A stretch of DNA of 64,000 nucleotides from an uncultured bacterium (GCA_965544395.1 CBEUND010000001.1:6875-70874), one strand, 5' to 3'. Positions 24,606 to 41,091 are shown, counted from the first letter of the stretch. Translations and numbers: made by a program. The notes: generated by a model not told the origin, from the letters alone.

Positions 24606-26252
24606 ATGAAATTGCACAGTTATGATATCGACAAACGATACAGTAAAAGCGTAGCCTACTTCTCTATGGAGTTTGCTATAGATCAAGCACTCAAGATATA
24701 TTCAGGTGGATTGGGCTTTTTAGCTGGTTCACATATGAGAAGTGTCTATGATCTCAAACAAAATGTAGTAGGTATCGGGATGTTGTGGAGTTTTGGATAT
24801 TATGACCAAACACGAAACGAAAATAGAAGCCTTAGACCAGCATATACAAGAAAGTTTTACTACTTTCTCCAAGAGTTAGATGTGCATGTCACTGTCAATA
24901 TCGATGGTCAAGATGTTTGCGTCAAAGCTTTCTACCTCGCTCCTGATACTTTCGGTACAGCTCCTATGATACTGCTCTCTACAGATACAGCGGAAAATGA
25001 CTATCTTGCGAGAACTATCACACACAAGCTCTATGATGGCAACGAACGAACGAGAATTGCTCAAGAGATTGTACTCGGTATCGGTGGTACGAGAGTATTA
25101 GAGGCACTTAATCATCAAGTAGATATCTACCATATGAATGAGGGGCATGCCCTCCCACTCGTCTATGATCTCTATGGCAAACACTACCAAGATATAGATG
25201 AACTTCGCAAACATGTAGTATTTACGACACATACACCAGAAGCTGCTGGTAATGAGATACACAATATTCACTTCCTCCATGAGATGGGCTTTTTCAATGG
25301 TCACTCACTAGAGACTATCAGAGAGATCAGTGGGTATGAGCATGATGATAATTTCAGTCTTACTGTAGGAGCATTACGATCTGCTAAAATAGCCAATGCT
25401 GTATCCAAAATCCATGGAGATGTCTCCAACGATATGTGGAGAGGCGTAGATAATAGATGTGAAATCATCTCTATTACCAATGCACAAAACAAAAAATATT
25501 GGACAGACAAAACCCTTATAAGAGCACTCGATGAGCATGAAGATTATGAACTCCTTGCTAGAAAAAAACACCTCAAAAAGATACTCTTTGATACAGTGGC
25601 AGATCAAACAGGTAAAATGTTTGATCCTGAAGTGTTGACTATCGTGTGGGCAAGAAGGTTTGCAGAGTATAAGAGACCAGGATTGCTCAAGTATGATTTT
25701 GAGAGATTTCATAAATTGATTCAAAATAGTGATATGCCTATACAGATCATCTGGGCTGGGAAACCATACCCTACAGACCATGGTGCAATTGAGATATTTA
25801 ACGAATTGATACAGATCAGTCATCACTACAAAAATATCGCCGTATTGATAGGCTACGAACTCTCACTCTCAAAACTCCTCAAGCAAGGGAGTGATGTTTG
25901 GCTCAATACACCTCGTATCACAAGAGAAGCGAGCGGTACGAGCGGTATGACAGCGAGTATGAATGGCTCTATCCACTTCTCTATAGATGATGGATGGCAT
26001 CCAGAGTTCGCAAAAGATGGTAAAAATGCCTTTACAATACCAGCACTCGACCATACACTCCCTACTGATGAGCAAGATAGACTAGACAATCTCCATATGA
26101 TGGATATCTTAGAAAACGAGATACGCCCACTCTATTATGGTGACAGTGATCAATGGGTTACAATTATGAAAAATGCTATGTCTGATATAGAGATAGATTT
26201 CGACTCTGCTAGAATGGCTACAGAGTATTATGAAAAAATGTTTACAAAATAA
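24606..26252 (+). CDS. glgP: Alpha-glucan (glycogen/maltodextrin) phosphorylase family protein, GT35, short form
   Basis: YFSMEFAI, FTTHTPEAAGNE and WARRFAEYKRP...EASGTSGMTASMNG motifs. The Lys of the usual ..GMK.. motif reads Thr here. Confidence 0.8.
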   Translation: MKLHSYDIDKRYSKSVAYFSMEFAIDQALKIYSGGLGFLAGSHMRSVYDLKQNVVGIGMLWSFGYYDQTRNENRSLRPAYTRKFYYFLQELDVHVTVNIDGQDVCVKAFYLAPDTFGTAPMILLSTDTAENDYLARTITHKLYDGNERTRIAQEIVLGIGGTRVLEALNHQVDIYHMNEGHALPLVYDLYGKHYQDIDELRKHVVFTTHTPEAAGNEIHNIHFLHEMGFFNGHSLETIREISGYEHDDNFSLTVGALRSAKIANAVSKIHGDVSNDMWRGVDNRCEIISITNAQNKKYWTDKTLIRALDEHEDYELLARKKHLKKILFDTVADQTGKMFDPEVLTIVWARRFAEYKRPGLLKYDFERFHKLIQNSDMPIQIIWAGKPYPTDHGAIEIFNELIQISHHYKNIAVLIGYELSLSKLLKQGSDVWLNTPRITREASGTSGMTASMNGSIHFSIDDGWHPEFAKDGKNAFTIPALDHTLPTDEQDRLDNLHMMDILENEIRPLYYGDSDQWVTIMKNAMSDIEIDFDSARMATEYYEKMFTK

Positions 26253-26264
26253 GGTATTATAATT

Positions 26265-27485
26265 ATGACTTCTAATCTAACAACTATGCAGGGTGTCAAA
26301 ACCCTCAAAGATATTGATATAGAGGGCAAGAGGGTTTTGATCCGTGTAGACTTCAATGTCCCTGTCGACTCACACAACAATATATCAGATGATCGCCGTA
26401 TCCGTACAGCTTTGCCAACCATCAACTACTGTATTGACCACAACGCTTGCTCTATCACACTCGTGACACACTTCGGACGACCAAAGGGGAGTTATGATGA
26501 GAAGTATAGTCTCAAACATATTGTCAAGAGAGTAGAGAGATTGCTTCATAAAAAAGTAGAGTTTATCGAGGATTTTGAAGAGTCCAGAGATGAGATATCT
26601 ACTTGTTCATTAGAGCGAGTATTTCTACTAGAAAATATCCGTTTTCACGAGGGTGAAAAGAAAAATGATGCTGAACTCTCCAAACGATTAGCCTCCATCT
26701 GTGATGTCTATGTCAATGATGCTTTTGGTACTTCGCATCGTAAACATGCCTCTACTTACGGTGTGGCACAGTTTGTCGAGACTAAAGTAGCTGGTTTCTT
26801 GATGTCCAAAGAGATAGATGCCTTCTCCAAGGCTCTCGAAGTACCAGTACGACCCATAGCACTTGTAGTGGGTGGAGCCAAGATCTCTACGAAGATTACA
26901 CTGCTCAAGGCTGTTATGAAGAAAGTGGATAAACTTATCATCGGTGGGGCTATGAGTAATACCTTTCTCCAAGCCCAAGGCTACGATATGCAAAAATCCC
27001 TCTACGAAGAGGAGTATCTCGACACCGCACTCAATGTACTCAAAGAAGCAAGAGAGAATGGTGTCAAAGTCTATCTCCCTTTAGATCTTGTCACTACTGA
27101 CTCCATAGAGTCACCTGTAGATGTCAAGATCGTACCTGCACAAGATGTGTTGGAGAATTTCCAAGCTGTCGATATAGGACCAGCTACAGTCAAACTCTTT
27201 AGCGAAGCGATAGGACTCTCCAATACTATTATATGGAATGGTCCTATGGGTATCTATGAGATAGACAAATTCTCGAAAGGTACCTTCAAGATGGCTACCA
27301 CTATAGCAGACACTTATGCTTACACTATCGTAGGTGGTGGTGATACTGCTGACGCTGTAGACAAAGCAGGGGAGGCTACAAACTTCAGCTTCATCTCTAC
27401 AGGTGGTGGTGCGAGTCTTGAGCTACTAGAGGGCAAGATATTGCCAGGGTTTGAACTATTAGATAGAAAGAGCGAGGAGAAGTAA
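26265..27485 (+). CDS. pgk: Phosphoglycerate kinase
   Basis: RVDFNVP, HFGRPKG, NDAFGTSHR and STGGGASLE motifs. Confidence 0.97.
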   Translation: MTSNLTTMQGVKTLKDIDIEGKRVLIRVDFNVPVDSHNNISDDRRIRTALPTINYCIDHNACSITLVTHFGRPKGSYDEKYSLKHIVKRVERLLHKKVEFIEDFEESRDEISTCSLERVFLLENIRFHEGEKKNDAELSKRLASICDVYVNDAFGTSHRKHASTYGVAQFVETKVAGFLMSKEIDAFSKALEVPVRPIALVVGGAKISTKITLLKAVMKKVDKLIIGGAMSNTFLQAQGYDMQKSLYEEEYLDTALNVLKEARENGVKVYLPLDLVTTDSIESPVDVKIVPAQDVLENFQAVDIGPATVKLFSEAIGLSNTIIWNGPMGIYEIDKFSKGTFKMATTIADTYAYTIVGGGDTADAVDKAGEATNFSFISTGGGASLELLEGKILPGFELLDRKSEEK

Positions 27486-28444
27486 TGGCACTCGCTATCA
27501 TGTCCTCTGGTGGTGATGCACCAGGTATGAATCCTGCCATCAAAAAGTTTGTAGACTATGCCTACAAAAAAGGAGAGAAGACTTTTCTCATATATGATGG
27601 TTTGGAGGGTTTGATAGATAACCGTATCAAGGAAGCTCACCATCGTCATGTGGCAGGTATCCTCCATAGAGGAGGGGCAATCATCCGCTCTTCACGATCC
27701 AAACGATTTTTTGAGTATGAGCATAGAAAACAAGCGTATGAGAACCTCAAGGCACACGGTATCACAGGATTAGTCGTTCTCGGTGGTGATGGCTCTTTTC
27801 GTGCGATGGATCGTTTCAGTAGAGAATTTGATCTCAATTTTGTAGGGATACCCTCTACAATAGATAATGATATTCATGGTACAGAGTATTGTCTCGGTGC
27901 TGATACAGCACTTAATGTCATCCGTGATGCACTTGACAAGATACGAGACACAGCCTCTTCATTCAACCGTGCCTTTCTTGTGGAGGTAATGGGGCGTGAT
28001 TGTGGTTTTTTGGCTATAGTCTCTGCGATGATTAGCGGTGCAGAGGTGTGTGTCATACCCGAGGTAGAGTTTGATTATGAGAAGGTAGGCAAGAGACTGC
28101 GTGCTGAGGTAGAAGATGGACGCAATTATGCTCTCGCTATCGTAGCAGAGGGAACCAAGCAGACGAGCCAAGTGCATAAGTGGCTCCAAGAGACTATAGG
28201 GTTGGAGACGCGAGTGAGTATATTGGGACATATCCAAAGGGGCGGTAACCCTACAGTATATGATAGATTGATGGCATTTGACTTCACTATCACTGCTGTC
28301 GATCATCTTCTCTCACATAACAACTCAAACAAAGTAGTAGTCTATCAAAAGAGCGAATTTAAACTTATAGATATCAAAGAGGTAGTAGGGCATAAGTATC
28401 AACTGCCCCAGCACTATCTTGATGCGGTTAACTTGTTAGATTGA
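27485..28444 (+). CDS. pfkA: ATP-dependent 6-phosphofructokinase
   Basis: SGGDAPGMN, LGGDGS, PSTIDND, MGRDCG and GHIQRGG motifs. ATG overlaps the pgk stop. Confidence 0.93.
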   Translation: MALAIMSSGGDAPGMNPAIKKFVDYAYKKGEKTFLIYDGLEGLIDNRIKEAHHRHVAGILHRGGAIIRSSRSKRFFEYEHRKQAYENLKAHGITGLVVLGGDGSFRAMDRFSREFDLNFVGIPSTIDNDIHGTEYCLGADTALNVIRDALDKIRDTASSFNRAFLVEVMGRDCGFLAIVSAMISGAEVCVIPEVEFDYEKVGKRLRAEVEDGRNYALAIVAEGTKQTSQVHKWLQETIGLETRVSILGHIQRGGNPTVYDRLMAFDFTITAVDHLLSHNNSNKVVVYQKSEFKLIDIKEVVGHKYQLPQHYLDAVNLLD

Positions 28445-28465
28445 TAAAACAAAGGAGTTTATAAT

Positions 28466-28744
28466 ATGGTAAAGATAACAAAAAGAGGCAAAAAGGCTTG
28501 GGTGACATTTACTCTCGCTCCAGAAGGCGTGCAGAGTGCGATGCTTTCAGGTGCTTGGAATGATTGGCACAAAGAGCCTATGAAGATCAAAAAGAGTGGA
28601 GAGTTTTACTTGACCAAAGTTTTGGCTACAGGTGACTCATATGAGTTTGGTTATGTTGTTAATGACAAAGAGTGGAGATGTGATGATGATTTAAGCTGTG
28701 TGATCTCTCCATATGGGTCAGACAATTCACTATTGGTGCTTTGA
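28466..28744 (+). CDS. Stand-alone CBM48/AMPK-beta-like glycogen-binding module (92 aa)
   Basis: VTFTL...SGAWNDWHKEPMKIKKSGEFYLTKVLATGDSYEFGYVVNDKEWRCDDD...GSDNSLLVL matches the E-set/CBM48 pattern. AAAGGAG Shine-Dalgarno. Last gene of the glycolytic operon. Confidence 0.7.
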   Translation: MVKITKRGKKAWVTFTLAPEGVQSAMLSGAWNDWHKEPMKIKKSGEFYLTKVLATGDSYEFGYVVNDKEWRCDDDLSCVISPYGSDNSLLVL

Positions 28745-28763: not shown

Positions 28764-29381
28764 ATGAAAGGGTTTATACTCTCTCTCAATAGAGCTAAAA
28801 ATGAAGATATGGTAGTCACCATACTCTCAGCAGAGCATGTGCGTGCTTATTATAGATTTTTTGGTGCTAGGCACTCTATCTTACAGCTAGGTAACCTCAT
28901 AGACTTTGAAGTAGAAGGTGAACAAGATAGATTTATGCCAAGACTAAGGAGTGTAAGTCACTTAGGTTTTCCTTGGCTCTATGATAACAACCTCCTACTC
29001 ATGTGGCACAACTATATCAAACTCTATCAAAAACATCTCAAAGATACAGAAGATATAGAGAGTTTCTATTTTGATCTTCTTTTGGGTGCTGCACAGAAGT
29101 GGCATTTACAAAATCCAAAAAGAGTGATTTGTGAAGATTATCTCAAGATACTCTCTTATGAAGGAAGATTACATGATACACAGAGGTGTTATGTGTGTGA
29201 AGAGCCTATAGAGGAGGAAGTATCGCTCATGCGAGCTTTTATCCCTGCCCATGCACACTGTATCTATAGTGCTTCACTCAAGAGAGAGAAGCTCAATACT
29301 CTCTTTGGTACGGGAAAAAGTATCTATCTAGAAGATAATGAAGTAGAGTATCTACATAGTATAGTCATGCAAGGTTTTTAG
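28764..29381 (+). CDS. recO: DNA repair protein RecO (short epsilonproteobacterial form)
   Basis: N-terminal OB-fold-like ILSLNRAKNEDMVVTIL..YYRFFGARHS, and a C-terminal CxxC...HxHC zinc motif (CYVCEEP...AHAHC). Confidence 0.75.
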   Translation: MKGFILSLNRAKNEDMVVTILSAEHVRAYYRFFGARHSILQLGNLIDFEVEGEQDRFMPRLRSVSHLGFPWLYDNNLLLMWHNYIKLYQKHLKDTEDIESFYFDLLLGAAQKWHLQNPKRVICEDYLKILSYEGRLHDTQRCYVCEEPIEEEVSLMRAFIPAHAHCIYSASLKREKLNTLFGTGKSIYLEDNEVEYLHSIVMQGF

Positions 29382-29388
29382 TTGGCTT

Positions 29389-30129
29389 TTATTTTGCACA
29401 TTTTGCTCCAAAATCTTTCATAGCATACTTGAGTACTGCTCCATCATCATCAGCAAAATATACATGTCCACTTGCATCAAATGCGATACCCTCTTGAGCA
29501 AATTTTTCTAAACCTAGCTTACATTGAATCTTCTCTTTTTTTATATCATAGCGTATCAGTAGATCTTTTTTATCACTGACAAGGTATAAAGAGTCGTTGT
29601 GGTATGCCAAACCTGCTGTATCGGCAACTTTGTGTTTGATAATATCCACTATTTTTGTATGGTATCTATCAAGCTTGACTACTGCGATAAACGAATCTTT
29701 TTTCTTTTTTGCCTGTTTTGCTAAGTAGTACTTTTTGCCTACTTTTGTGATCCCTTCTATTCCTGAAGATTTATCGAGTATTTTTATCTTCTTTCCTTGA
29801 TAGGTGGAGTCTAACTTCACAAGCTTTTTTTTGTTTGTACTCCTATCAACCAACAGAAAACCTCTATTTTCTGCAGCAAAAACGAACCGTTTCTTTTCAC
29901 AGACTACACCTTCAAGATCATATTTTCCTAGATGCTTTTTGTTAATAATCTCTCCATTGGTTTTTATCTCGTAGAGCCATCCTTCGTCATTGGTAACGAC
30001 AAGAGTATCACTCCCTTCACAGTAGTCAATACCTGATGCTTCGGGAATCTTGGCTATAGTATAACTCTCTATTTTACTAAAAAGTAGCGTTGTTCCGATA
30101 AAGAGTAGTATTAAAATATTTTTTATCAT
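29389..30129 (-). CDS. Secreted beta-propeller-like protein (SdiA-regulated/YjiK- or phytase-like family)
   Basis: Signal peptide. Repeated blade-like motifs PEASGIDY, DLEGVV, SGIEGIT, AGLAYH, EGIAFDASGHVYFADD. AGGAG Shine-Dalgarno 8 nt upstream; starts 15 nt after the KAP-FGE gene stop. Confidence 0.55.
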   Translation of the reverse strand: MIKNILILLFIGTTLLFSKIESYTIAKIPEASGIDYCEGSDTLVVTNDEGWLYEIKTNGEIINKKHLGKYDLEGVVCEKKRFVFAAENRGFLLVDRSTNKKKLVKLDSTYQGKKIKILDKSSGIEGITKVGKKYYLAKQAKKKKDSFIAVVKLDRYHTKIVDIIKHKVADTAGLAYHNDSLYLVSDKKDLLIRYDIKKEKIQCKLGLEKFAQEGIAFDASGHVYFADDDGAVLKYAMKDFGAKCAK

Positions 30130-30144
30130 GATAGATTCTCCTCT

Positions 30145-32505
30145 CTAATAAGGAACTTTTACAAGCCTAAACCCAACGATACCATAGCGATTGTTGTGTA
30201 CCATACAATCTATATCATTGGTATGTGTATCCGAAGCTACAAGATTCCAAGCACCACCACGAATAACCTTCTCCTCTTTGTTGTCACCACACCAGTCATC
30301 ACACCACTCCCAGACATTCCCATGCATATCATATAATCCCAAATCATTTGGTATTTTATTGCCTACGGGGTGTGTCTTTTTCCCACTATTATCTCTATAC
30401 CAAGCATAAGTACCTAGCTTTGAGATATCATCTCCAAAGTGCCATTCTAAATCTTTTCCTAAGTTACATGCGAGTGTCCACTCATCACTTGTAGGGAGTC
30501 TATATTTGACATTCTCTTTTTTGCTTCTCCATTCAGCATAGGAGACAGCATCATCCCAAGAGACATTGATCACGGGTCTCAATCCTCTACCCCATTCGTT
30601 GTCATCAGGTTTTTTCTTGCCTATATTTTCACAATATTTATCATATTGATTAAATGTAATCAAATGAGAACCCATTTCAAAATGGAAATATTTTGCAATT
30701 TCAGCAGACTTTGAGTGTTTTGCAACCAACGAGAACCATGCGACATTTTTGATAAAACCATTGCTTCTTGCTTTTTTCATTATCCTATCAAGCTGATTGA
30801 GTGATAAATACGCCTTATTTTCTGCAAAAAGATTATCTTCCTTGAATGCATCACTCCATGCTATAGGATCATTTGGAGCAAAAAGGAGTTTTTCAAAGTT
30901 TGGTGAGTAGATGACTTTACTCACTCTATCTTCAATATATTTGACATATCTACTATTTTCTAAGATATGTTTCAAACTCTTCTCTAAGTTGTTATCACTC
31001 AAATAGGTGCCATCAAAGACAGAGTCTAGCTCAAATCTATCTCTCGCTTCATAGTGTTCTTTGATATGTTTTAAGAGACTTCTATAGATTTTAGAAAATT
31101 TTTCTGTTTTAGCAATTTTTTTGATATATTTCTCTATAACTTCATAATCCTCTAGTGAGTTTTGTTCCTCTCGACTCCCTGCAATTCGAAAGGTTTCGAG
31201 GCGTTTCCAGAGTGATGCATGGTACTTAGTTTGGCTATGTATAAATTTCAAAAGTTTTGGCGAAAAGAGTTCAAGTAGCGTTACTTTTGCTAATAGCATC
31301 AGATCTATATCAAGCTCCAAATCATTGAGAAGTTTTAGTTTACTCTCAAACAAGCGTGCAACTCTCTTAATCTTCCTAGGTTTTGCTGGGATACTATGTG
31401 CAAAGAAATCAAGGAGATTTTTTGAAGGGAGCTCTATCTCCTCTCCATAGAGTTGTCTTTCTCTATAGTAGTTTTCATCGACTATATTGATCCACTCACT
31501 ACTATACTCTTCGAGAAACTCTCTGACATTTGTTGTATCTATACTAGGCAAATGAGTTGGTAGTTGTATCATCTTCTCTAAGTATTCATCACCAGTGATA
31601 GGAAGGTTGAGTGTAGAGTCATACAAAGCGTCTCCTACATTCTGATAATCTTTATAGTAGTGTGCTACTCCTCTCTCTATAATATCATCATTGAGTGAAA
31701 ATACAAACGCACAAGGTGGAACACGCAAAAAGAGTTCGATAGAGTTCAAGATGGTGAGTGTATGCTCAGGGAGACATCTATCTAAGTCATCAATGAGAAA
31801 AATAAAATTTACTTTCCCATAGAGAGCAATTTTTTCTATATATTGTGGGACACTTAGATAGATAGAGTCAAGTTTTTCTGGAGATACAATATGGGTTCTT
31901 ATATTAGCCATTGTACTCTCTTTGCTCAGGCTTTTTGTACTTTTTTGGTGATGTAATCCATAGTTGAGTGAACGCAAAATAATTTTTAGATTTGAAATAA
32001 TAAATTTCAACTCTATTTTTTTGTGTTCTCTAAGGTTTCTCTCATAATCCTCAATAGCTTGTATCAGTGTTTTTATGAGTGGAATAATGATATATTGTTC
32101 ATCTTCATAACGCCATGCATTAAATATGACAGGTATTGTTGTTGTCGGTAGTGCAGTTGTCTTTTTGATCAGATTATTTCTGATGAGATTGAGCTGATGC
32201 GTCTTGCCACTTCCTGACTCTCCAAAGATACCTACAGACAATGGCTCCAAACTCTTATACTCACCACAAACAAGATCATCTATAGCTTTTTGATACGATT
32301 TGATATCCTTTGCACTCTCTTGTAGTAAAAAAATGTCATCGTTGTTGGTAGTTGTGTCTTGTCGATAATCATATATCGCCTCCTTGAGAGTATCACAAGC
32401 TGTCACAGTATTATAGAGTGTTTGGAAATTACGCTCAATCTGTTCTGTTATCACATTTGCATAGCTATGTGTTTGTCTTGAAATATCTTTTTTATACATA
32501 TTCAA
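30145..32505 (-). CDS. KAP-family P-loop NTPase fused to a C-terminal FGE-sulfatase (SUMF1-like) domain
   Basis: Walker A GIFGESGSGKTH, FNAWRYE, FIFLIDDLDRCLPEH, MIQLPTHLP and PAKPRKIKRV (KAP signatures). The C-terminal approximately 170 aa carry VSWDDAVSYAEW, RLPTSDEW, YDMHGNVWEWCDDW, IRGGAW and GFRLV. Confidence 0.8.
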   Translation of the reverse strand: MNMYKKDISRQTHSYANVITEQIERNFQTLYNTVTACDTLKEAIYDYRQDTTTNNDDIFLLQESAKDIKSYQKAIDDLVCGEYKSLEPLSVGIFGESGSGKTHQLNLIRNNLIKKTTALPTTTIPVIFNAWRYEDEQYIIIPLIKTLIQAIEDYERNLREHKKIELKFIISNLKIILRSLNYGLHHQKSTKSLSKESTMANIRTHIVSPEKLDSIYLSVPQYIEKIALYGKVNFIFLIDDLDRCLPEHTLTILNSIELFLRVPPCAFVFSLNDDIIERGVAHYYKDYQNVGDALYDSTLNLPITGDEYLEKMIQLPTHLPSIDTTNVREFLEEYSSEWINIVDENYYRERQLYGEEIELPSKNLLDFFAHSIPAKPRKIKRVARLFESKLKLLNDLELDIDLMLLAKVTLLELFSPKLLKFIHSQTKYHASLWKRLETFRIAGSREEQNSLEDYEVIEKYIKKIAKTEKFSKIYRSLLKHIKEHYEARDRFELDSVFDGTYLSDNNLEKSLKHILENSRYVKYIEDRVSKVIYSPNFEKLLFAPNDPIAWSDAFKEDNLFAENKAYLSLNQLDRIMKKARSNGFIKNVAWFSLVAKHSKSAEIAKYFHFEMGSHLITFNQYDKYCENIGKKKPDDNEWGRGLRPVINVSWDDAVSYAEWRSKKENVKYRLPTSDEWTLACNLGKDLEWHFGDDISKLGTYAWYRDNSGKKTHPVGNKIPNDLGLYDMHGNVWEWCDDWCGDNKEEKVIRGGAWNLVASDTHTNDIDCMVHNNRYGIVGFRLVKVPY

Positions 32506-32550: not shown

Positions 32551-33288
32551 TTAGGAGATATTAGTATATACCGCTTGTACATCCTCATCATCTTCAAGTT
32601 TGTCTATCAGCGTATCTACTTCATCCATCTGCTCATCTGTCAACTCTATAGGTGTATTGGCAATGCGTTGGAGTTCCGCTTTGTTTATGGCAATACCTCT
32701 CTCTTCAAGTGCATGGGAGAGTTCACCAAATGATGTAAACTCACCAAATACTCTCAAGATAGGTTTATCTTCACCATTGTCTTGAGGCTCTACATCCTCT
32801 TCTATCTCTTCTAAGCCAAAATCTATCAGCTCAAGCTCAAGCTCTTCGAGATCTATATCTTCTGTTTTATCAAAGACAAATACTGCTTTGCGAGTAAACA
32901 TAAAGTCAAGAGAGCCATTTTGTAGGATATCCCCACCATTTCTTGTCAATATAGCTTTGATATTGGCTACAGTTCTTGTATGATTGTCCGTTGCGGCATC
33001 TATAAAAAGAAGCACGCCATGGTGTGCTTTTGCCTCATAACTTAACTCTTTGATATCTGCCGCATCTTTACCACTCGCTCTTTTGATCGCTGCTTCGATA
33101 TTGTCTTTTGGCATATTTTGTGCTTTGGCATTGAGAATAGCTGTTCTAAGTTTTGGATTCATATCTGGATCAGCCCCACCATCTTTTGCAGCCATTGTGA
33201 TGATCTTTCCTAGTTTGGGAAATACTCTTGACATTGTACCCCATCTCTTCATTTTGGCTGCTTTTCGATACTCAAATGCTCTACCCAT
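32551..33288 (-). CDS. yebC: YebC/PmpR-family transcriptional regulator
   Basis: [35 protein letters not shown], the canonical YebC N-terminus. Confidence 0.95.
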
Positions 33289-34723: not shown

Positions 34724-36445
34724 CTATGAAGAAAAGAGCAGAGCCAGCTTAATCTCATCATAACTCACTTCACCACCCAATACATCAAATATTGGCTTGA
34801 GTCTCATCTCTCCTTTGTCGGTGAAAAGCTCCTCATCTCCACTCTCTTTGAGACTGCTTACTGCTTCTATAATTTTGGGGGAGTAGGATTCGCTCTTTTG
34901 AAATTTGCTCAAATCCAAGCTCTCATCCTCTTTTTTGAGAGTGGCTAAGTGGCTTATGATAGTTGCTTTGCTCACACCTCTATATTTGGCGATATCTATG
35001 ATAGTATCACACTTCTCCAAGAGATTTTTTGTTTTGATATGTGTAGGGGTTTTGTAGCTATTTGCTGAGAGCGTACCACTCTCTATCTGTACTCTCCGCT
35101 CTTCTATCTCTGCTTTGTTAACTATGCCACCCATTCGCTCTATGTAGCTATCATATATACTATCTAACTGTTCGCTAGGGATAGACTCTATCTCTTCGGT
35201 TGCTTTTGCAGAGGCAGCTTTGATACGATCATCTATACGAAGTGTGAGTGGATCTACGGCGAGTGCCATATCGTTGAGTCCCATGAGTCTCAATCCATCT
35301 ATACTCTTGATACGGGAGAGGGCAACATAGCCTTGTCCTCTCTCAAATGTCTTAGAGAGATCGATCTGGGCTGCATCGAGTGTCATGCCCTGAGATTTGT
35401 GTATAGTGATAGCCCATGCTAGTCGTAGAGGTATCTGTGATACTTTTGCGGAGATCACACCGCTTTCGTTTTCTAGTGACCAATCCTCCATCTCTATCTT
35501 GATCTTCCTGCCTGAGGAGAGACGCACTATAGGGAGAGAGTCATGCCCATCAAAACCTGTGATGATACCTGTAGAGCCATTGACATATCCCTGTTCGGGA
35601 TTGTTTTTGATACATATCACTACGGCATTTTTCTTGAGTGCCAACTCCTCTACTACGAGAGAGGATTTGAATATCTTCTCTATATTACTCTTGCTTCCTT
35701 TGGTTTCTGCTGTGAAATATATAACTCTATTGGGTAATTTATCAAGCTCCTCTTGGTTGATCCTATCTACATCTACATTGTGTGTATAGAGCTTGGTATG
35801 TGTAAATTCTCCTGCCAACTCTTTGTGATAGCGAGACTCCAAGAGTGCGTGTGAAGTTGCAGTGATCTCTCCCCTACGGATATCATCAAGCAGAGAGATC
35901 AATCGCTCATCATCCTGCCTAAACTTCTCTGAAAGATAGCAACTCTTGAGTGCCAACTCTCTCCAAGCAGAAGCTTGCCAAGCAAAGCGTTTCTCTTGGT
36001 AGCCTTGGGTGACTGGAGGAAGCTGAAAGAAGTCACCAGAGAGTATCACCTGCACACCGCCAAAGGGCATAGTGTCGTTTTTGAACCCTCGCAGTATCAT
36101 ATCCATCGCAGAGAAGAGCTCAGGAGAGACCATAGATATCTCATCTATGATCAATATTTTGAGTTTGGCAAATCGTGATACTATATGTTTTTTGCTTCGT
36201 AAAAACTCCACATATTCCTCATCTATACTGTCGCGGATACCGAGCGAGAAGTAGGAGTGTATCGTCTGTCCTTTGAGGTGCGATGCGGCTATACCAGTAG
36301 GAGCCACCACTGTGGGATAGACTCTCCGCTCTTTGAGGTAGCGTATATAGCTGTTGAGTAGGTATGTTTTGCCTGTGCCAGCAGAACCAGTGATGAAAAT
36401 ATTTGCTCCTGATTTGAAAAGTTTTAGGGCTGTTTTTTGTTGCAA
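34724..36445 (-). CDS. Pif1/RecD-like SF1 helicase with C-terminal helix-turn-helix region
   Basis: Walker A ITGSAGTGKTYL, APTGIAA, Walker B LIIDEISMV, SGDFFQLPPV, ITIHKSQG. The C-terminal approximately 120 aa are HTH-like (IAKYRGVSKATIISHL). Confidence 0.85.
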   Translation of the reverse strand: MQQKTALKLFKSGANIFITGSAGTGKTYLLNSYIRYLKERRVYPTVVAPTGIAASHLKGQTIHSYFSLGIRDSIDEEYVEFLRSKKHIVSRFAKLKILIIDEISMVSPELFSAMDMILRGFKNDTMPFGGVQVILSGDFFQLPPVTQGYQEKRFAWQASAWRELALKSCYLSEKFRQDDERLISLLDDIRRGEITATSHALLESRYHKELAGEFTHTKLYTHNVDVDRINQEELDKLPNRVIYFTAETKGSKSNIEKIFKSSLVVEELALKKNAVVICIKNNPEQGYVNGSTGIITGFDGHDSLPIVRLSSGRKIKIEMEDWSLENESGVISAKVSQIPLRLAWAITIHKSQGMTLDAAQIDLSKTFERGQGYVALSRIKSIDGLRLMGLNDMALAVDPLTLRIDDRIKAASAKATEEIESIPSEQLDSIYDSYIERMGGIVNKAEIEERRVQIESGTLSANSYKTPTHIKTKNLLEKCDTIIDIAKYRGVSKATIISHLATLKKEDESLDLSKFQKSESYSPKIIEAVSSLKESGDEELFTDKGEMRLKPIFDVLGGEVSYDEIKLALLFSS

Positions 36446-37907: not shown

Positions 37908-38020
37908 GGTTATTATCCCTCATGTTTTGTTTAGAATTATGCCATATTAAATCTTTTTTTTTAAGTTATAGAGTATATAATGAGTAATAATCGAAATAAA
38001 ATTTGTAGGTATCAGATAGC

Positions 38021-39532
38021 ATGGGTAGTGATAAGCGAAGAACGATCTTTAATAGAGTATATGAATATAGACTCTCAATTATATTTTTTGTCATTTTATC
38101 TACTTCTAGTATGGCTCTATGGCTCTACTTGCAACCAGATATTTATGAGACATCTACGACTATTGAAGTGGGGATAGAGGGTAGCCACTCAAGAGATGCC
38201 TTCACTACTCAGACCAATGAGGGAACTTCTATCAATACGCAGATAGGTATAATAAAGTCTAGATTTTTAGCAACACAAGCATTACAAAAAGTTGATTTGA
38301 CACATCGCTACTTTGTAAAAAGAGGGATGAGAAAAAAAGAACTCTATAAAAATATCCCTTTTGAACTCAACTTAACAAAAGGGAAACAGATATTGTTTCA
38401 TCTCTATCCTATTGATGAAGAGTCATATAGATTGAGAGTTGATGATGGTTCTATAGATTATGATCAGGTTGTTGATTATGGTAAAGAGGTTAAAAATGAT
38501 ATCTTTCAATTGAAGATACAACGCAAGAAAAATATAAATATGTCTGAAAACTCTTATCAATTTATACTCCTTCCTAATAGTGTTGCTATAAAGTATGCAG
38601 TAGAAAATACAAGAGTATCGCAATGGATGCCCAATGCATCACTACTCAAAATCACATATCAAGATACAAACTCACTCAGAGCAAAGGAGTATGCAGATGC
38701 ATTGGCATCATCATATATAGAGCAGAGTATCTATCAAAAGAGAGAAGAGTCTTCCAAAACACTTAATTTTGTAGATAAGCAACTCTTAGAGATCAACAAT
38801 AGTCTCCAATCCTTTGCTCGAGAATTAGAAAACTTTAAACTCAAAACAAATACAGTAAGTTTGGATGAAAAGGCTAAGTCAATAGAAGAGATAATAGGAA
38901 ATAATAGAATGAATTTATCACAATTGAGTGTGCAAGAGGAGTTATTGCATGCACTTTATCAACAGATAAAGAGCGGGGAAAATTTAGAAATCCTCTCTTT
39001 GGTTGGTTTTGGAGGTGACAACGCTCATGAGAGTTCCATTCCAAGTTTGGTAAAAAATATGCAAACATCTGTACTAAAGATGAAGTTATTGCGTGCAGAT
39101 TATACAAAAGATTATCCAGAAGTAAAAAAACTTCAACAACAGATAAATCAATTGAAAAATATTATAATCAATACTATAAAGAGTATGAAGAAAAATATTA
39201 CCAATCGAAAATTACTCGTCGAAAAGTCTATAAAAAAAGAGGAAAAGATACTACAAAAGTTACCTAAAAATGAGAGAGAGTATGAACGAATTAAACAAAA
39301 ATTTGTTCTTAATGAGAAGATATACTCTTATCTCTTAGAACAGCGTTTTGCTATCGCTATCGCCAAAGAGTCTACAGTGCGTAAAAGTCGGATTCTGGAT
39401 AGAGCATTCCAACCAACAGATAAAGTCAATCCCTACAAACAAAAAACTCTTCTTATGGCTTTAATTTTTGGGTTGTTGTTGGGGATTTGCTATGCTTTTT
39501 TAAGAGCCTTTCTCAATAATAAAATTACATGA
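38021..39532 (+). CDS. Polysaccharide co-polymerase (Wzz/GumC-type chain-length determinant) without a kinase domain
   Basis: N-terminal TM followed by YETSTTIEV, a long periplasmic coiled-coil region, and a C-terminal TM (LLMALIFGLLLGICYAFL). No Walker motifs. Confidence 0.75.
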   Translation: MGSDKRRTIFNRVYEYRLSIIFFVILSTSSMALWLYLQPDIYETSTTIEVGIEGSHSRDAFTTQTNEGTSINTQIGIIKSRFLATQALQKVDLTHRYFVKRGMRKKELYKNIPFELNLTKGKQILFHLYPIDEESYRLRVDDGSIDYDQVVDYGKEVKNDIFQLKIQRKKNINMSENSYQFILLPNSVAIKYAVENTRVSQWMPNASLLKITYQDTNSLRAKEYADALASSYIEQSIYQKREESSKTLNFVDKQLLEINNSLQSFARELENFKLKTNTVSLDEKAKSIEEIIGNNRMNLSQLSVQEELLHALYQQIKSGENLEILSLVGFGGDNAHESSIPSLVKNMQTSVLKMKLLRADYTKDYPEVKKLQQQINQLKNIIINTIKSMKKNITNRKLLVEKSIKKEEKILQKLPKNEREYERIKQKFVLNEKIYSYLLEQRFAIAIAKESTVRKSRILDRAFQPTDKVNPYKQKTLLMALIFGLLLGICYAFLRAFLNNKIT

Positions 39533-40302
39533 GAACTCTATTAGACTTCTTGCAAAGGATAAAAAAAGAGATGAAGTTTTTTTCTAAAAAGCGAGAAGAT
39601 AAAGAGTCTCGTATATCCTTAGATATTGATATCCATTCGCATCTTATTCCAGCGATTGATGACGGCTCTCAAAGCTTACAAGAGAGTATAGAGATGATAG
39701 AGCTGATGTCTAGCTTGGGATACAAGAAGATGATTATGACTCCCCATGTGATGGCTGACTCATACCCAAATAGTACAGAGACGCTACAAAATGGTTTAGA
39801 ACAACTCAAAGAGGCGATAAAAGTTGATAAGATCGATATGATACTTGAAGTTGCTGCAGAGTATTATCTTGATGAACTCTTTGTCGAGAGAGTGCAGAAC
39901 GATGATATATTGACGATAGGAGATAGGTATCTACTTTTTGAAACTTCTTATATCTCTAAGCCTATGAATTTTGAAAATATAATATTTGATATGAAAGTCA
40001 AAGGCTATAAACCAATCTTGGCACATCCTGAGCGATATAGATATATTACTCAAGCAAAAGAGGAGTATAGGCAGATGAAGGAGTTGGGTCTCTATTTTCA
40101 GCTTGATATCAACTCTTTGGGTGGCTTTTATGGGAAGCAGGCACAAGAACAAGCGAAGGTTCTTACGGAGTTAGGCATGATAGATTTTTTGGGGAGTGAT
40201 ATCCACCACAAGAGACAAGTCTCTAATCTTGCAAAAGTTTTAAAGAGTAGAGCATATCAAAGTGTTTGGAGTAAGAATCAAATCAAAAATAGTAGATTGT
40301 AA
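39529..40302 (+). CDS. PHP-family Mn-dependent protein-tyrosine phosphatase (CpsB/YwqE-like)
   Basis: DIDIHSHLIPAIDDG, TPHV and LAHPERYRY motifs. ATGA overlap with the upstream stop; alternative ATG at 39571. Confidence 0.85.
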   Translation: MRTLLDFLQRIKKEMKFFSKKREDKESRISLDIDIHSHLIPAIDDGSQSLQESIEMIELMSSLGYKKMIMTPHVMADSYPNSTETLQNGLEQLKEAIKVDKIDMILEVAAEYYLDELFVERVQNDDILTIGDRYLLFETSYISKPMNFENIIFDMKVKGYKPILAHPERYRYITQAKEEYRQMKELGLYFQLDINSLGGFYGKQAQEQAKVLTELGMIDFLGSDIHHKRQVSNLAKVLKSRAYQSVWSKNQIKNSRL

Positions 40303-40353
40303 TTAATCTAATAATGCTATAATAATAATTAGTATTGAATGGAGAGATATGAT

Positions 40354-41091
40354 ATGAATAAACTATTTGCATTGATTAGTCTATCTCTATCTATCTTTTT
40401 CATAACAGGTTGTAGCATGGGACGATCTGATTTTGAATTGATGCAGTCACAAAAGCCTGTAAAGAGTGAGAAACGAGTAGCCATGAAAGATATAGAGTAT
40501 AAGATTATGCCACATGATAGGCTGGCTATAGTTATCTATCAATATCCAGAATTGACTCCTACAGAGATGAACCAAAAGGGTATTTTGATAGATGCAAAGG
40601 GGTATATCTCCCTTCCTCTCATACATAGAGTCAAAGTAGCAGGGTATACACAGTCCAATGCGGCAAGAATGCTCGAAGAGAAATATAAAAAATATTTGAC
40701 AGATCCCTCTTTGAATATTGAAGTTATGAATAAAAGAGTCTATGTATTAGGAGAAGTGAAAAATCCTGGTGTTGTAAAATTGGATAATGAGATGGGTACA
40801 GTAATGCAAGTGATTGCTCATGCAGGTGGTTTGAGAGATACAGCCCAGAGAGACGCAGTCTATATAGTCAGTAATAGTGGTGATAATATTATGCACATAA
40901 GGAGAGTTGATTTGACGAGTTTTGCATCATTGCAACAGACAAACATCATAGTCAAACCTAATGATATACTCTATGTACAACCAAATAAATGGAAATCATT
41001 TAGAGTAGCATCCAATGATTTGACTTCTCCTTTTGAGACGATTACAAAGATTGCAGCTCCATTTGTGACTTTGAAATATCTTGCAGATTGA
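40354..41091 (+). CDS. Polysaccharide export outer-membrane lipoprotein (Wza-like)
   Basis: Lipobox FITGCS, Poly_export motif YKIMPHDRLAIVIYQYPEL, SLBB-like VYVLGEVKNPG. GGAGAG Shine-Dalgarno before ATG 40354 (the ORF opens at 40339). Confidence 0.82.
   Translation: MNKLFALISLSLSIFFITGCSMGRSDFELMQSQKPVKSEKRVAMKDIEYKIMPHDRLAIVIYQYPELTPTEMNQKGILIDAKGYISLPLIHRVKVAGYTQSNAARMLEEKYKKYLTDPSLNIEVMNKRVYVLGEVKNPGVVKLDNEMGTVMQVIAHAGGLRDTAQRDAVYIVSNSGDNIMHIRRVDLTSFASLQQTNIIVKPNDILYVQPNKWKSFRVASNDLTSPFETITKIAAPFVTLKYLAD

What the first reader, a model, noticed from the sequence alone, without database searches (positions are those of the whole stretch)
29389..32505. KAP-family NTPase fused to an FGE-sulfatase-like domain and linked to a secreted beta-propeller: candidate undescribed sensor/conflict module between recO and yebC
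Seen: the 786-aa ORF (32505->30145, minus strand) shows KAP P-loop hallmarks in order. These are Walker A GIFGESGSGKTH (aa 92-103), FNAWRYE, FIFLIDDLDRCLPEH, MIQLPTHLP and PAKPRKIKRV. I see no hydrophobic insertion within the NTPase, although many KAP members have one. After an approximately 200-aa helical region, the last approximately 170 aa carry FGE-sulfatase/SUMF1 motifs (INVSWDDAVSYAEW, YRLPTSDEW, LYDMHGNVWEWCDDW, IRGGAW, GFRLV). Only one Cys follows RGGAW, so the CxxxxC catalytic pair I recall from true formylglycine-generating enzymes is not evident. The TAG stop is followed by AGGAG and, 15 nt later, by the ATG of a 246-aa signal-peptide protein with propeller-blade motifs (PEASGI, DLEGV, EGIAFD). 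The pair sits between two housekeeping genes, and spot-checked lines are AT-rich (I counted 12/60 and 22/60 G+C in two of them). Knowledge: KAP NTPases are patchily distributed. Non-catalytic FGE-sulfatase domains recur as ligand-sensor modules fused to NTPases, kinases and caspase-like proteases in prokaryotic conflict systems, according to the comparative-genomics literature. Inference: this is a cytoplasmic NTPase switch with an FGE-type sensor coupled to a periplasmic partner. I know of no named system with this composition.
Basis: partly seen in the sequence, partly recalled or inferred. Interest (0 to 1): 0.8.

Follow-up and report, generated by a model that had tools for sequence, protein, structure and literature searches.

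The report
KAP ATPase fused to lectin-type sensor
This is a soluble KAP-family ATPase joined to a non-catalytic, lectin-like "FGE" binding domain, a predicted intracellular invader sensor of a type already described from comparative genomics; its neighbouring secreted propeller gene is probably not a dedicated partner.

Summary
A 784-aa ORF (ATG at 32499; the 786-aa TTG start is less likely) carries a KAP P-loop NTPase (Pfam E 1.6e-29) and a C-terminal FGE-sulfatase/C-type-lectin domain (E 4.7e-31). It has no transmembrane insert and no catalytic Cys pair. A 246-aa signal-peptide five-bladed propeller (SdiA-regulated family) follows 15 nt later, between yebC and recO.

- **Not undescribed.** Kaur et al. 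2021 list KAP ATPase as an alternative NTPase in "NTPase-FGS" conflict systems. Doré et al. 2023 list KAP-C-type-lectin proteins among targets of diversity-generating retroelements (DGRs).
- **Closest structure.** It is TvpA, a DGR variable protein.
- **Hypervariable sister clade.** In Sulfurovum relatives, the 24 residues between RGGSW and GFRL vary strongly, with an adenine-mutagenesis-type residue repertoire. In the window's subclade this segment is conserved, and the window has no template repeat or reverse transcriptase.
- **Propeller link is narrow.** It appears only in the closest relatives (76% identity or more). Relatives at 42-66% identity stand alone in different neighbourhoods. The propeller family is far commoner, with its own contexts.

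Best reading: a single-gene, ATPase-gated cytoplasmic sensor, probably defensive, with no recognised effector. It is a new member of a known predicted kind, of moderate interest.

The parts
30145..32499 (-). KAP-FGS fusion gene, 784 aa from the ATG (786 aa if the TTG at 32505 is used)
   Evidence: ORF list. Homologues start MYKKD. The 784-aa form is in public collections. GAGGA lies 7 nt upstream of the ATG.
32248..32499 (-). N-terminal helical region (aa 1-84), two long helices, conserved, no known domain
   Evidence: The model has H3-34 and H36-51. Y13 and F25 are invariant, and V16, I17, Q20, I21, N24 and L28 are nearly so. No Pfam hit.
31345..32295 (-). KAP-family P-loop NTPase domain (aa 69-385), soluble, no TM insert
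   Evidence: Pfam PF07693, E 1.6e-29. Maximum KD19 is 1.42. PADLOC hits: PDC-S20 1.7e-16, QatA 1.6e-24 (partial), PifA 2.5e-12.
32197..32232 (-). Walker A, GIFGESGSGKTH (aa 90-101)
   Evidence: Coordinates checked by translation. G90, F92, E94, G96, S97, G98 and K99 are invariant in 56 sequences.
31762..31806 (-). Walker B and KAP signature, FIFLIDDLDRCLPEH (aa 232-246)
   Evidence: F232, F234, L235, D237, D238, L239, R241, C242, L243, P244 and E245 are invariant.
30685..31344 (-). Middle helical region (aa 386-605), conserved, no known domain
   Evidence: Helices H400-594 with pLDDT mostly above 85. No Pfam hit for aa 384-600. PDC-S20 models extend to aa 514.
30157..30684 (-). FGE-sulfatase-type C-type-lectin (FGS) domain (aa 606-781), non-catalytic
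   Evidence: Pfam PF03781, E 4.7e-31. The best PDB sequence match (E 1.5e-14) and the best fold match (E 1.4e-9, TMt 0.57) are both TvpA (2Y3C). No CxxxxC.
30175..30246 (-). Segment equivalent to a DGR variable region (aa 752-775, NLVASDTHTNDIDCMVHNNRYGIV), conserved ('frozen') in this subclade
   Evidence: VR identity is at least about that of the rest of the protein within the subclade (88/88, 92/75, 83/87%). In the sister clade it is 14-42% against 88-90%. Synonymous changes occur among subclade members. No template repeat in the window.
30130..30144 (-). 15-nt intergenic spacer containing AGGAG
29389..30129 (-). Adjacent 246-aa secreted five-bladed beta-propeller (SdiA-regulated/YjiK family). 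It is a neighbour and membership of the system is doubtful.
   Evidence: Pfam PF06977, E 8.1e-11. N-terminal hydrophobic segment aa 2-20. Model pLDDT 89.8. Context data.
32551..33288 (-). yebC, upstream flank on the same strand, 51-nt gap
   Evidence: Pfam. L165 has the same yebC->fusion->propeller order, with YebC 93% identical.
28764..29381 (+). recO, convergent downstream flank
   Evidence: Pfam RecO_N_2, E 1.2e-26.

Best explanation
The 784-aa gene encodes a stand-alone, soluble cytoplasmic protein. An N-terminal conserved helical region and a KAP-family P-loop ATPase, apparently catalytically competent, are joined through a helical middle domain to a C-terminal FGE-type C-type-lectin ("FGS") domain. 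That domain is a binding module, not an enzyme.

It belongs to the predicted NTPase-FGS class of invader sensors.
- Inferred: the lectin-like domain binds a foreign (phage or plasmid) molecule in the cytoplasm.
- Inferred: binding is coupled to ATP-dependent switching or oligomerisation of the KAP module.
- Not identified: the output that limits the invader. It could act through the conserved N-terminal or middle helical regions, or through a partner encoded elsewhere.

The Sulfurovum family it belongs to is split.
- Most members carry a hypervariable ligand-binding segment with the residue signature of DGR adenine mutagenesis.
- The window's subclade has a fixed, ordinarily evolving version of that segment, so its specificity is germline-encoded.

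The gene behaves as an accessory single-gene unit that lands in different chromosomal places. Its adjacency to the secreted propeller is confined to one sublineage and is most likely positional rather than mechanistic.
For: Shown: architecture
- Both Pfam domains are well above cut-off.
- Walker A and B and other KAP motifs are invariant in 56 homologues.
- There is no TM segment.
- The AlphaFold model has pLDDT 80.3 and pTM 0.69, with the expected domain order.

Shown: binding rather than enzymatic domain
- There is no CxxxxC pair and no conserved Cys after RGGSW.
- The best sequence and fold match is the DGR variable protein TvpA.

Shown: hypervariability in the sister clade
- Near-identical pairs differ mostly in the 24-aa segment: P0046/P0051 90% against 38%, P0041/P0048 89% against 29%, P0036/P0047 88% against 14%.
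- At 15 high-entropy VR columns, K/E/Q/M make up 4.2% (31/732), against 33% (2557/7739) in other equally variable columns.
- Most VR columns fit AAC->NNC. One column is R21/W12/G7, which is what NGG codons encode.
- L004 VR codons end in C or T in 19 of 24 cases, against 48% gene-wide (p = 0.0016).

Shown: the window subclade is fixed
- VR identity is 83-92% among members that are 75-88% identical overall.
- There are synonymous differences in the VR.
- The window has no template repeat and no RT-like ORF.

Shown: accessory behaviour
Seven distinct contexts were read for the fusion.

Literature
- KAP ATPase is named as an alternative NTPase in NTPase-FGS systems, and FGS is proposed as an invader-binding lectin (PMC8195603).
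- KAP NTPase plus C-type-lectin proteins are among DGR clade 5D targets (bioRxiv 10.1101/2023.09.22.558884).
- FGE-sulfatase-like sensors occur in defence-associated STANDs (PMC13581612).
- Single-gene KAP NTPases fused to diverse C-terminal regions protect against phage, and protection needs the Walker B motif (PMC13552941).

Other hits
PADLOC hits to PDC-S20, QatA and PifA.
Against: - No NTPase-FGS protein has a demonstrated function, and none is tested here.
- No effector domain or effector-associated domain was recognised. Pfam finds nothing in aa 1-89 or aa 384-600.
- The window locus is not a defence island. The neighbours are glycolysis/glycogen genes, recO, yebC, a permease, a PIF1-like helicase and argH.
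- G+C is not atypical, and there are no flanking repeats or mobility genes.
- QatA and PifA hits are partial. The NCBIfam QatA score is 110 bits against a cut-off of 600.
- The DGR signature in the sister clade is seen in protein sequences plus the codons of a single gene (L004). No TR or RT was found in the three sister-clade loci whose DNA was available (L004, L085, L086), and two of those are short contigs.
- A fixed binding segment gives no direct sign of an arms race in the window's own subclade.
- The KAP-FGS->propeller adjacency recurs in two different outer contexts (yebC/recO and ABC/galU). That leaves some room for a real link.
Confidence: 0.6

Rival explanations
1. One reading: a dedicated two-gene module in which the cytoplasmic KAP-FGS switch works with the secreted beta-propeller, co-transcribed and functionally coupled.
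For: - The two genes are on the same strand with a 15-nt gap and an RBS.
- The same order and spacing is seen in L165 (88% identity) and L003 (76% identity).
- The outer flanks differ between the window/L165 (yebC ... recO) and L003 (ABC transporter ... galU-like gene). Adjacency therefore either survived rearrangement or arose twice.
- Contig-length matching suggests further co-located pairs on contigs of 12,591, 50,027 and 15,928 nt.
Against: - Fusion genes at 42-66% identity (L001/L002, L171/L172, L173, L004) have no propeller within 6 kb.
- The MNB_SV-6 assembly has the two genes on different contigs.
- There are 535 propeller homologues against about 55 fusion clusters.
- Propellers lie in at least four contexts without the fusion.
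- The window's propeller is closer to unpaired ones (73% and 67%) than to L003's paired one (61%), while the fusion proteins show the opposite order. The pairs do not co-diverge.
- L003's propeller keeps the galU neighbour typical of unpaired propellers.
- Predicted compartments differ: the fusion has no signal peptide or TM segment, and the propeller has a signal peptide.
- PADLOC has no hit for the propeller.
Confidence: 0.15
2. A non-defence cellular role: an ATP-gated receptor for an endogenous ligand (for example a glycan, peptide or metabolite), used in regulation or stress signalling and possibly co-expressed with yebC.
For: - The flanks are housekeeping genes. There is a 51-nt gap to yebC on the same strand, and no terminator-like site lies between them.
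- The binding segment is conserved in the subclade.
- No effector domain was recognised.
- FGE-fold domains also serve non-immune roles, such as PvdO and PorK/GldK.
Against: - The gene is patchy and sits in a different place in each lineage.
- The sister clade is hypervariable at the binding site, which is typical of conflict-driven receptors.
- The closest structural relative is a DGR variable protein.
- KAP fusions are experimentally defensive in other bacteria.
Confidence: 0.2
3. A catalytically active FGE-family enzyme (formylglycine generation, or EgtB/OvoA/PvdO-like chemistry) regulated by an ATPase, perhaps modifying the neighbouring propeller.
For: Pfam FGE-sulfatase hit, and weak NCBIfam hits to PvdO, EgtB, OvoA and GldK.
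Against: - There is no CxxxxC pair, and a single non-conserved Cys follows RGGAW.
- All NCBIfam scores are far below cut-off: 21-52 bits against 350-500 or more.
- Alignments to solved FGEs stop before the catalytic region.
- There is no DinB-like iron-binding domain as in EgtB. Pfam shows only KAP and FGE.
- The propeller has no CxPxR sulfatase-type motif (sequence) and is exported.
Confidence: 0.03

Closest known systems
NTPase-FGS conflict systems (Kaur, Iyer, Burroughs, Aravind, eLife 2021, PMC8195603)
   Same: An NTPase lies N-terminal to a C-terminal FGS (PF03781) lectin-fold domain proposed to bind invader molecules. The paper explicitly says the STAND NTPase can be replaced by the KAP ATPase.
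   Different: Described examples usually carry an N-terminal effector or effector-associated domain, have paralogous copies, and are often DGR-linked. Here no such domain was recognised and the window has no DGR. All of these systems are predictions without experiments.
DGR-diversified NTPase-C-type-lectin targets (Doré et al., bioRxiv 10.1101/2023.09.22.558884)
   Same: KAP NTPase plus C-type-lectin architecture is listed among targets of DGR clade 5D. The sister clade of this protein shows a DGR-type residue repertoire at the canonical VR.
   Different: The window's subclade has a conserved VR with residues that AAY mutagenesis cannot reach (M, and Q/E/K in relatives) and synonymous drift. 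No TR or RT is present.
TvpA, Treponema denticola variable protein 1 (PDB 2Y3C)
   Same: It is the best sequence match (E 1.5e-14) and the best fold match (E 1.4e-9, TMt 0.57, 28% identity) for the C-terminal domain.
   Different: TvpA is a DGR target, which I recall to be a lipoprotein, with no NTPase. Here the domain is cytoplasmic and fused to a KAP ATPase.
Single-gene KAP NTPase antiphage proteins such as EF_KAP (PLoS Biol 2026, PMC13552941)
   Same: A KAP NTPase is fused to a C-terminal region that is needed for defence, and protection depends on the Walker B motif.
   Different: EF_KAP has transmembrane helices, including one inside the KAP domain, and an unrelated C-terminal region. This protein is soluble and ends in an FGS domain.
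QatA (QatABCD), PifA (F plasmid) and PADLOC candidate PDC-S20
   Same: All share the KAP NTPase core: PADLOC E values of 1.6e-24, 2.5e-12 and 1.7e-16.
   Different: The QatA hit is partial, and NCBIfam gives 110 bits against a cut-off of 600. No QatBCD-type genes are among the annotated neighbours. The PifA hit is weak. PDC-S20 models are about 450-464 positions long; that they are unvalidated single-gene candidates is my recollection of PADLOC naming.
RdrA of RADAR and ORC/Cdc6 AAA+ ATPases
   Same: Weak fold similarity for the NTPase and helical part: Foldseek E 1.7e-6 to 1e-3, TM 0.2-0.27. This hints at a ring-forming ATPase.
   Different: TM scores are low, there is no RdrA hit in PADLOC, and there is no RdrB-like deaminase neighbour.
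Formylglycine-generating enzyme (SUMF1/FGE)
   Same: Same fold family (PF03781).
   Different: The catalytic Cys pair is absent. Alignments to FGE structures cover only the N-terminal two thirds of the domain.

Membership tests
KAP family P-loop NTPase (PF07693) | Profile match above the curated threshold | tested here: met
   103.5 bits against a cut-off of 20, E 1.6e-29, model positions 4-287 of 293.
KAP family P-loop NTPase (PF07693) | Intact Walker A (GxxGxGK[ST]) and Walker B (hhhhDD) motifs | tested here: met
   GESGSGKT and FLIDDLDR are present. K99, D237 and D238 are invariant in 56 sequences.
KAP family P-loop NTPase (PF07693) | Transmembrane helices inserted in the NTPase domain (common but not obligatory, by my recollection of Aravind et al. 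2004) | tested here: not met
   The maximum 19-residue hydropathy is 1.42, and the Walker A-B insert is made of amphipathic helices. This is a soluble variant.
NTPase-FGS conflict system (Kaur et al. 2021) | NTPase (STAND, KAP or AP-GTPase) followed by a C-terminal FGS domain in one polypeptide | tested here: met
   for the domains; for the definition.
NTPase-FGS conflict system (Kaur et al. 2021) | N-terminal effector or effector-associated domain, matched by the same domain on separate effector genes | tested here: inconclusive
   aa 1-84 are conserved and helical but have no Pfam hit. The EAD profiles of that paper are not available here, and only 64 kb of the genome is visible.
NTPase-FGS conflict system (Kaur et al. 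2021) | Frequent association with a DGR (RT, accessory protein, template repeat), in cis or in trans | tested here: not met
   The window has no repeat of the VR and no RT-like ORF. A DGR acting in trans elsewhere in the genome cannot be excluded, but the VR is conserved in the subclade.
DGR variable protein with FGE-type C-type-lectin fold (TvpA-like) | FGE-type C-type-lectin fold | tested here: met
   TvpA is the top hit by sequence and by fold.
DGR variable protein with FGE-type C-type-lectin fold (TvpA-like) | C-terminal variable region differing among close relatives at positions consistent with adenine mutagenesis | tested here: not met
   For the window's subclade the VR is 83-92% identical. 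For the sister clade (P0006-P0054) the feature is met at protein level.
DGR variable protein with FGE-type C-type-lectin fold (TvpA-like) | Cognate template repeat and reverse transcriptase | tested here: not met
   None in the window, and none in L001, L003, L004, L085, L086, L165, L171 or L173. The same scan finds VR/TR-like pairs in unrelated FGE loci such as L033 (126 nt, 88%).
Formylglycine-generating enzyme | Catalytic Cys pair (CxxxxC) after the RGGS motif | tested here: not met
QatABCD | QatA equivalog score, with QatB, QatC (QueC-like) and QatD (TatD) neighbours | tested here: not met
   NCBIfam QatA gives 110 bits against 600. The neighbours are yebC, the propeller and recO.
PADLOC PDC-S20 (candidate single-gene system) | Match to the PDC-S20 HMMs | tested here: inconclusive
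   E 1.7e-16 over aa 70-514 against model positions 25-440 of 464. No curated threshold is given, and the models lack an FGS domain.
SdiA-regulated/YjiK beta-propeller (partner gene) | PF06977 match above threshold and a propeller fold | tested here: met
   42 bits against a cut-off of 21. Five-bladed model with pLDDT 89.8. Profile hit to E. coli YjiK, 3QQZ, E 0.0018.

The most novel reading that the evidence does not exclude
A DGR-diversified family of cytoplasmic KAP-lectin receptors in vent Sulfurovum gave rise to a branch whose binding site became fixed, a hypermutating receptor 'hard-wired' into an innate one. In one sublineage this fixed receptor has become linked to a periplasmic five-bladed propeller as a real two-compartment module, for example by co-regulated envelope remodelling on detection of an invader.
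Probability: 0.12. Interest if true: 0.6.

Novelty: new member of a known kind. Interest (0 to 1): 0.35.

Why it matters
NTPase-FGS proteins are proposed to be bacterial counterparts of antigen receptors, but none has been tested experimentally. This Sulfurovum family offers a natural contrast within one protein family. One branch has a hypervariable, DGR-like binding segment. The other, which includes the window's gene, has a fixed segment. A fixed-specificity, soluble, single-gene member is a practical candidate for finding the ligand and the output of this class. The gain is incremental, however. The architecture and its sensor interpretation are already in the literature, and the proposed new feature (the propeller partner) is weakly supported.

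Tried and rejected
**Genome scan with the full-length alignment.** No Sulfurovum loci were returned. It did give three full-length KAP-FGE loci in other phyla (L006, L017, L032).

**Metagenome scan with a KAP-only alignment.** Only L085, L086 and L087 were close relatives.

**Exact look-ups of the window's YebC and of the identical partner P0121.** Both returned "not on record".

**recO|yebC occupancy by contig-length matching.**
- A 12,591-nt contig appears to share the window's arrangement.
- Thirteen other contigs with YebC in the same 90% cluster share no contig length with any member of the seven closest fusion clusters.
- Greedy clustering and the "longest contig only" reporting make this a hint rather than a test.

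**DGR components.**
- No template repeat in the window or in the Sulfurovum loci.
- No YxDD reverse-transcriptase-like ORF in the window.

**Insertion scars.** Only chance-level short repeats flank the pair.

**Promoter and terminator scan.** Not informative.

**Pfam on the N-terminal 89 aa and on aa 384-600.** No hits.

**RdrA as a KAP relative.** The literature search did not confirm it. Only weak fold similarity remains.

**Catalytic FGE reading.** Rejected because the Cys pair is absent.

**AT-richness as a sign of foreign origin.** Rejected: the pair falls at the 16th percentile of G+C.

Full report
**1. The observation**

The real start of the long ORF is more likely the ATG at 32499 (784 aa).
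- All close homologues begin MYKKD.
- The 784-aa form is the one held in public collections.
- GAGGA lies 7 nt upstream of that ATG.

Pfam supports both domains.
- KAP_NTPase covers aa 71-387 (E 1.6e-29, 103.5 bits, cut-off 20).
- FGE-sulfatase covers aa 608-783 (E 4.7e-31, 108.8 bits, cut-off 23.3).

Most of their residues are invariant in alignments of 15 and 56 homologues.

- **No membrane insert.** The most hydrophobic 19-residue window scores 1.42.
- **No catalytic Cys pair.** Only one Cys follows RGGAW, and no Cys is conserved there in the family. The catalytic pair of true formylglycine-generating enzymes is therefore absent.
- **Intergenic region.** The stop is followed by AGAGGAGAATCTATC and then the ATG of the second gene.
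- **Second gene.** It matches the SdiA-regulated family (PF06977, E 8.1e-11). It has an N-terminal hydrophobic signal-like segment. It models confidently as a five-bladed propeller (pLDDT 89.8).
- **Flanks.** They are recO and yebC. Further out are glycolysis/glycogen genes, a permease, a PIF1-like helicase and argininosuccinate lyase.
- **G+C.** The pair is 35.2% against 38.2% ± 2.8 for the window, the 16th percentile, so its AT-richness is not notable.

**2. The fusion protein**

A search of public proteins returned about 55 full-length relatives at 35-88% identity, all annotated with both domains. The few that carry names come from Sulfurovum or hydrothermal-vent metagenomes. More distant KAP+FGE proteins occur in other phyla (P0080-P0118, L006 Chloroflexota, L017 Brocadiia, L032 Thermodesulfobacteriota).

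The AlphaFold model (pLDDT 80.3, pTM 0.69) has four parts:
- two long N-terminal helices (aa 3-51);
- a P-loop core whose Walker A-B insert is helical and partly disordered rather than hydrophobic;
- a well-ordered helical middle domain (aa about 390-600);
- the C-terminal lectin-like domain.

By sequence and by fold, the closest solved structure to the C-terminal domain is TvpA, the Treponema denticola protein diversified by a diversity-generating retroelement (DGR). The sequence match has E 1.5e-14. The fold match has E 1.4e-9 and TMt 0.57. PvdO, PorK and FGE/EgtB follow.

The NTPase part resembles RdrA of RADAR and ORC/Cdc6 only weakly (TM 0.2-0.27).

PADLOC models hit the KAP part: QatA 1.6e-24 (partial), PDC-S20 1.7e-16 over aa 70-514, and PifA 2.5e-12. 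They do not hit the propeller. NCBIfam QatA scores 110 bits against a cut-off of 600. No known domain was found in aa 1-89 or aa 384-600.

**3. A variable-region signature in the family, but not in this gene**

The segment between RGGSW and GFRL is the position of the variable region (VR) in TvpA-type proteins. It behaves very differently in two branches of the family.

| Pair | Identity outside the 24-residue segment | Identity inside it |
|---|---|---|
| Sister clade: P0046/P0051 | 90% | 38% |
| Sister clade: P0041/P0048 | 89% | 29% |
| Sister clade: P0036/P0047 | 88% | 14% |
| Sister clade: P0020/P0034 | 88% | 42% |
| Window subclade: window/P0001 | 88% | 88% |
| Window subclade: window/P0002 | 75% | 92% |
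| Window subclade: P0003/P0004 | 87% | 83% |

The residue repertoire in the sister clade (P0006-P0054) fits adenine-specific mutagenesis of AAY-rich template codons.
- At 15 high-entropy VR columns, K/E/Q/M make up 4.2% (31/732). In 162 equally variable columns elsewhere they make up 33% (2557/7739).
- Most VR columns are fully explained by AAC->NNC.
- One column is R21/W12/G7, the set encoded by NGG.
- In L004 the VR codons end in C or T in 19 of 24 cases, against 48% in the rest of the gene (p = 0.0016).

Among the window's relatives the VR contains residues that route cannot reach (M, Q, E, K). They differ by synonymous changes, which is ordinary evolution under constraint.

The window has no second copy of the VR that could serve as a template and no reverse-transcriptase-like ORF. 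None of the Sulfurovum loci in hand has a template either. The same scan does detect VR/template-like pairs in unrelated FGE loci such as L033.

The DGR reading for the sister clade is therefore well supported at protein level but unconfirmed at DNA level. For the window's gene, the evidence is against current diversification.

**4. Genomic context**

| Locus (identity of fusion to window) | Arrangement |
|---|---|
| Window | yebC -> fusion -> propeller, then convergent recO |
| L165 (88%) | yebC -> fusion -> propeller (YebC 93% identical) |
| L003 (76%) | ABC transporter -> fusion -> propeller -> galU-like NTP_transferase |
| L001/L002 (65%) | between NlpC/P60 and YkuD genes, both on the opposite strand |
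| L171/L172 (66%) | between ftsW and an outer-membrane efflux gene |
| L173 (66%) | followed by a 150-aa unknown and an RNase T2 |
| L004 (46%) | between cvfB and dsbD |

None of the last four has a propeller within 6 kb.

The propeller family is much larger, with 535 hits, mostly 55-72% identical. It has its own contexts:
- dynamin-like GTPase -> propeller -> galU-like gene, in L166 and L174/L175;
- PFK -> propeller, in L167;
- TamB -> propeller, in L168/L169.

In the MNB_SV-6 assembly the fusion and the propeller are on different contigs.

The pairs do not co-diverge. The window's propeller is 73% and 67% identical to the unpaired ones of L174 and L166, but only 61% to the paired one of L003. 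The fusion proteins show the reverse order: 76% to L003 and 65% to L001.

L003's propeller keeps the galU neighbour of unpaired propellers. The fusion gene therefore looks like an accessory unit that has come to lie just upstream of a resident propeller gene in one sublineage. That this adjacency is seen with two different sets of outer flanks keeps a functional link possible, but it is not general.

Cluster listings suggest that a 12,591-nt contig repeats the window's arrangement. They also show that 13 other contigs with YebC in the same 90% cluster share no contig length with any close fusion gene. This is only a hint, because clustering is greedy and only the longest contig of each sequence is reported. 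Occupancy of the recO|yebC junction in relatives could not be tested directly.

**5. Comparison with the literature**

- Kaur et al. 2020 (PMC7159879) describe the FGS (PF03781) domain as a lectin-fold, often DGR-diversified, non-enzymatic binder of invader molecules in NTP-dependent conflict systems.
- Kaur et al. 2021 (PMC8195603) describe NTPase-FGS systems. [quoted passage not shown]
- Doré et al. [quoted passage not shown] They note that no STAND protein with such a domain has been examined experimentally.
- A 2026 Nature paper lists FGE-sulfatase-like sensors among defence-associated STANDs (PMC13581612).
- A 2026 PLoS Biology paper shows that single-gene KAP NTPases fused to diverse C-terminal regions protect against phage, and that protection depends on the Walker B motif (PMC13552941).

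The composition KAP + FGS is therefore already described, as a prediction.

**6. Mechanism**

- **Shown.** A soluble KAP ATPase with intact catalytic motifs is fused to a TvpA-type lectin-fold domain without enzyme residues. The gene is a patchy, relocating single-gene unit. The binding segment is hypervariable in the sister clade and fixed in the window's subclade.
- **Inferred from the named literature.** The FGS domain binds a foreign molecule in the cytoplasm, and binding gates ATP-dependent switching or assembly of the KAP module.
- **Unknown.** The output. The conserved N-terminal helices and the middle helical domain are the candidates. I put 0.6 on this reading overall.

Rivals:

| Rival | Confidence | Main point |
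|---|---|---|
| True two-gene module with the propeller | 0.15 | Adjacency persists across two outer contexts, but it is not general, the pairs do not co-diverge, and the compartments differ. |
| Non-defence ligand receptor | 0.2 | Housekeeping flanks, fixed binding site and no effector, but patchy and relocating. |
| Active FGE-type enzyme | 0.03 | No catalytic residues. |

**7. Verdict**

This is a new member of a known, computationally predicted kind. The main added value is the contrast between a DGR-like hypervariable branch and a fixed branch within one Sulfurovum family. The proposed propeller partnership is weakly supported. Interest is moderate to low (0.35).

Noticed in passing
Proteins P0006-P0054; DNA seen in L004:8365-8436 and L086:4028-4099: The sister clade of the window's protein has a 24-aa hypervariable segment with an NNY/NGG-type residue repertoire. 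K/E/Q/M make up 4.2% there against 33% in other equally variable columns, and one column is R/W/G. This looks like DGR adenine mutagenesis in Sulfurovum KAP-lectin proteins. No template repeat or RT was found in the available loci.
   Followed up: partly
window 29389-30129 (-): The propeller models as a compact five-bladed propeller. Its best solved-structure matches are bacterial and plant glutaminyl cyclases (TM 0.69-0.72, 12-15% identity). The sequence family is SdiA-regulated/YjiK rather than the cyclase family, so any enzymatic meaning is unknown.
   Followed up: partly
L166:4527-7544; L174:4445-7477; L003:8385-9926: There is a recurrent Sulfurovum arrangement of dynamin-like GTPase -> propeller -> galU-like NTP_transferase, preceded by ftsE/ftsX and an M23 peptidase gene. 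L003 keeps propeller -> galU, but upstream it has an ABC transporter and the KAP-FGS gene instead.
   Followed up: partly
L173:8389-11040: In this 66% relative the KAP-FGS gene is followed on the same strand by a 150-aa protein with no hits, an RNase T2 family protein and a 387-aa protein. This could be a candidate effector set for that lineage.
   Followed up: no
L171:7758-8254: A ParE-toxin gene and an upstream small ORF lie about 2.5 kb from the KAP-FGS gene, next to Sel1-repeat and Cdd1-like genes.
   Followed up: no
L167:7566-12599: One unpaired propeller sits beside defence-like genes: an ORF6N-domain protein, a PLD-helicase with DUF3427, and Fic.
   Followed up: no
window 32499-32505: The ORF list starts the long ORF at a TTG (786 aa). 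Homologues, public gene calls and the RBS spacing favour the ATG two codons downstream (784 aa).
   Followed up: yes
window 24606-28744 (+): A carbohydrate cluster lies upstream of recO: a phosphorylase-like protein, pgk, a PFK, and a 92-aa stand-alone glycogen-binding (AMPK1_CBM) domain protein. In L167 a PFK gene directly precedes a propeller gene and overlaps it.
   Followed up: no
window 38000-42000: G+C drops to 0.32-0.35 with a strong positive GC skew over capsule-type genes (Wzz/GNVR, CpsB/CapC). This stretch is more AT-rich than the finding itself.
   Followed up: no
window 34724-36445 (-): A PIF1-like helicase with a C-terminal HTH_40 domain lies two genes from yebC. It gives a spurious sub-threshold KAP_NTPase hit through its P-loop.
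   Followed up: no
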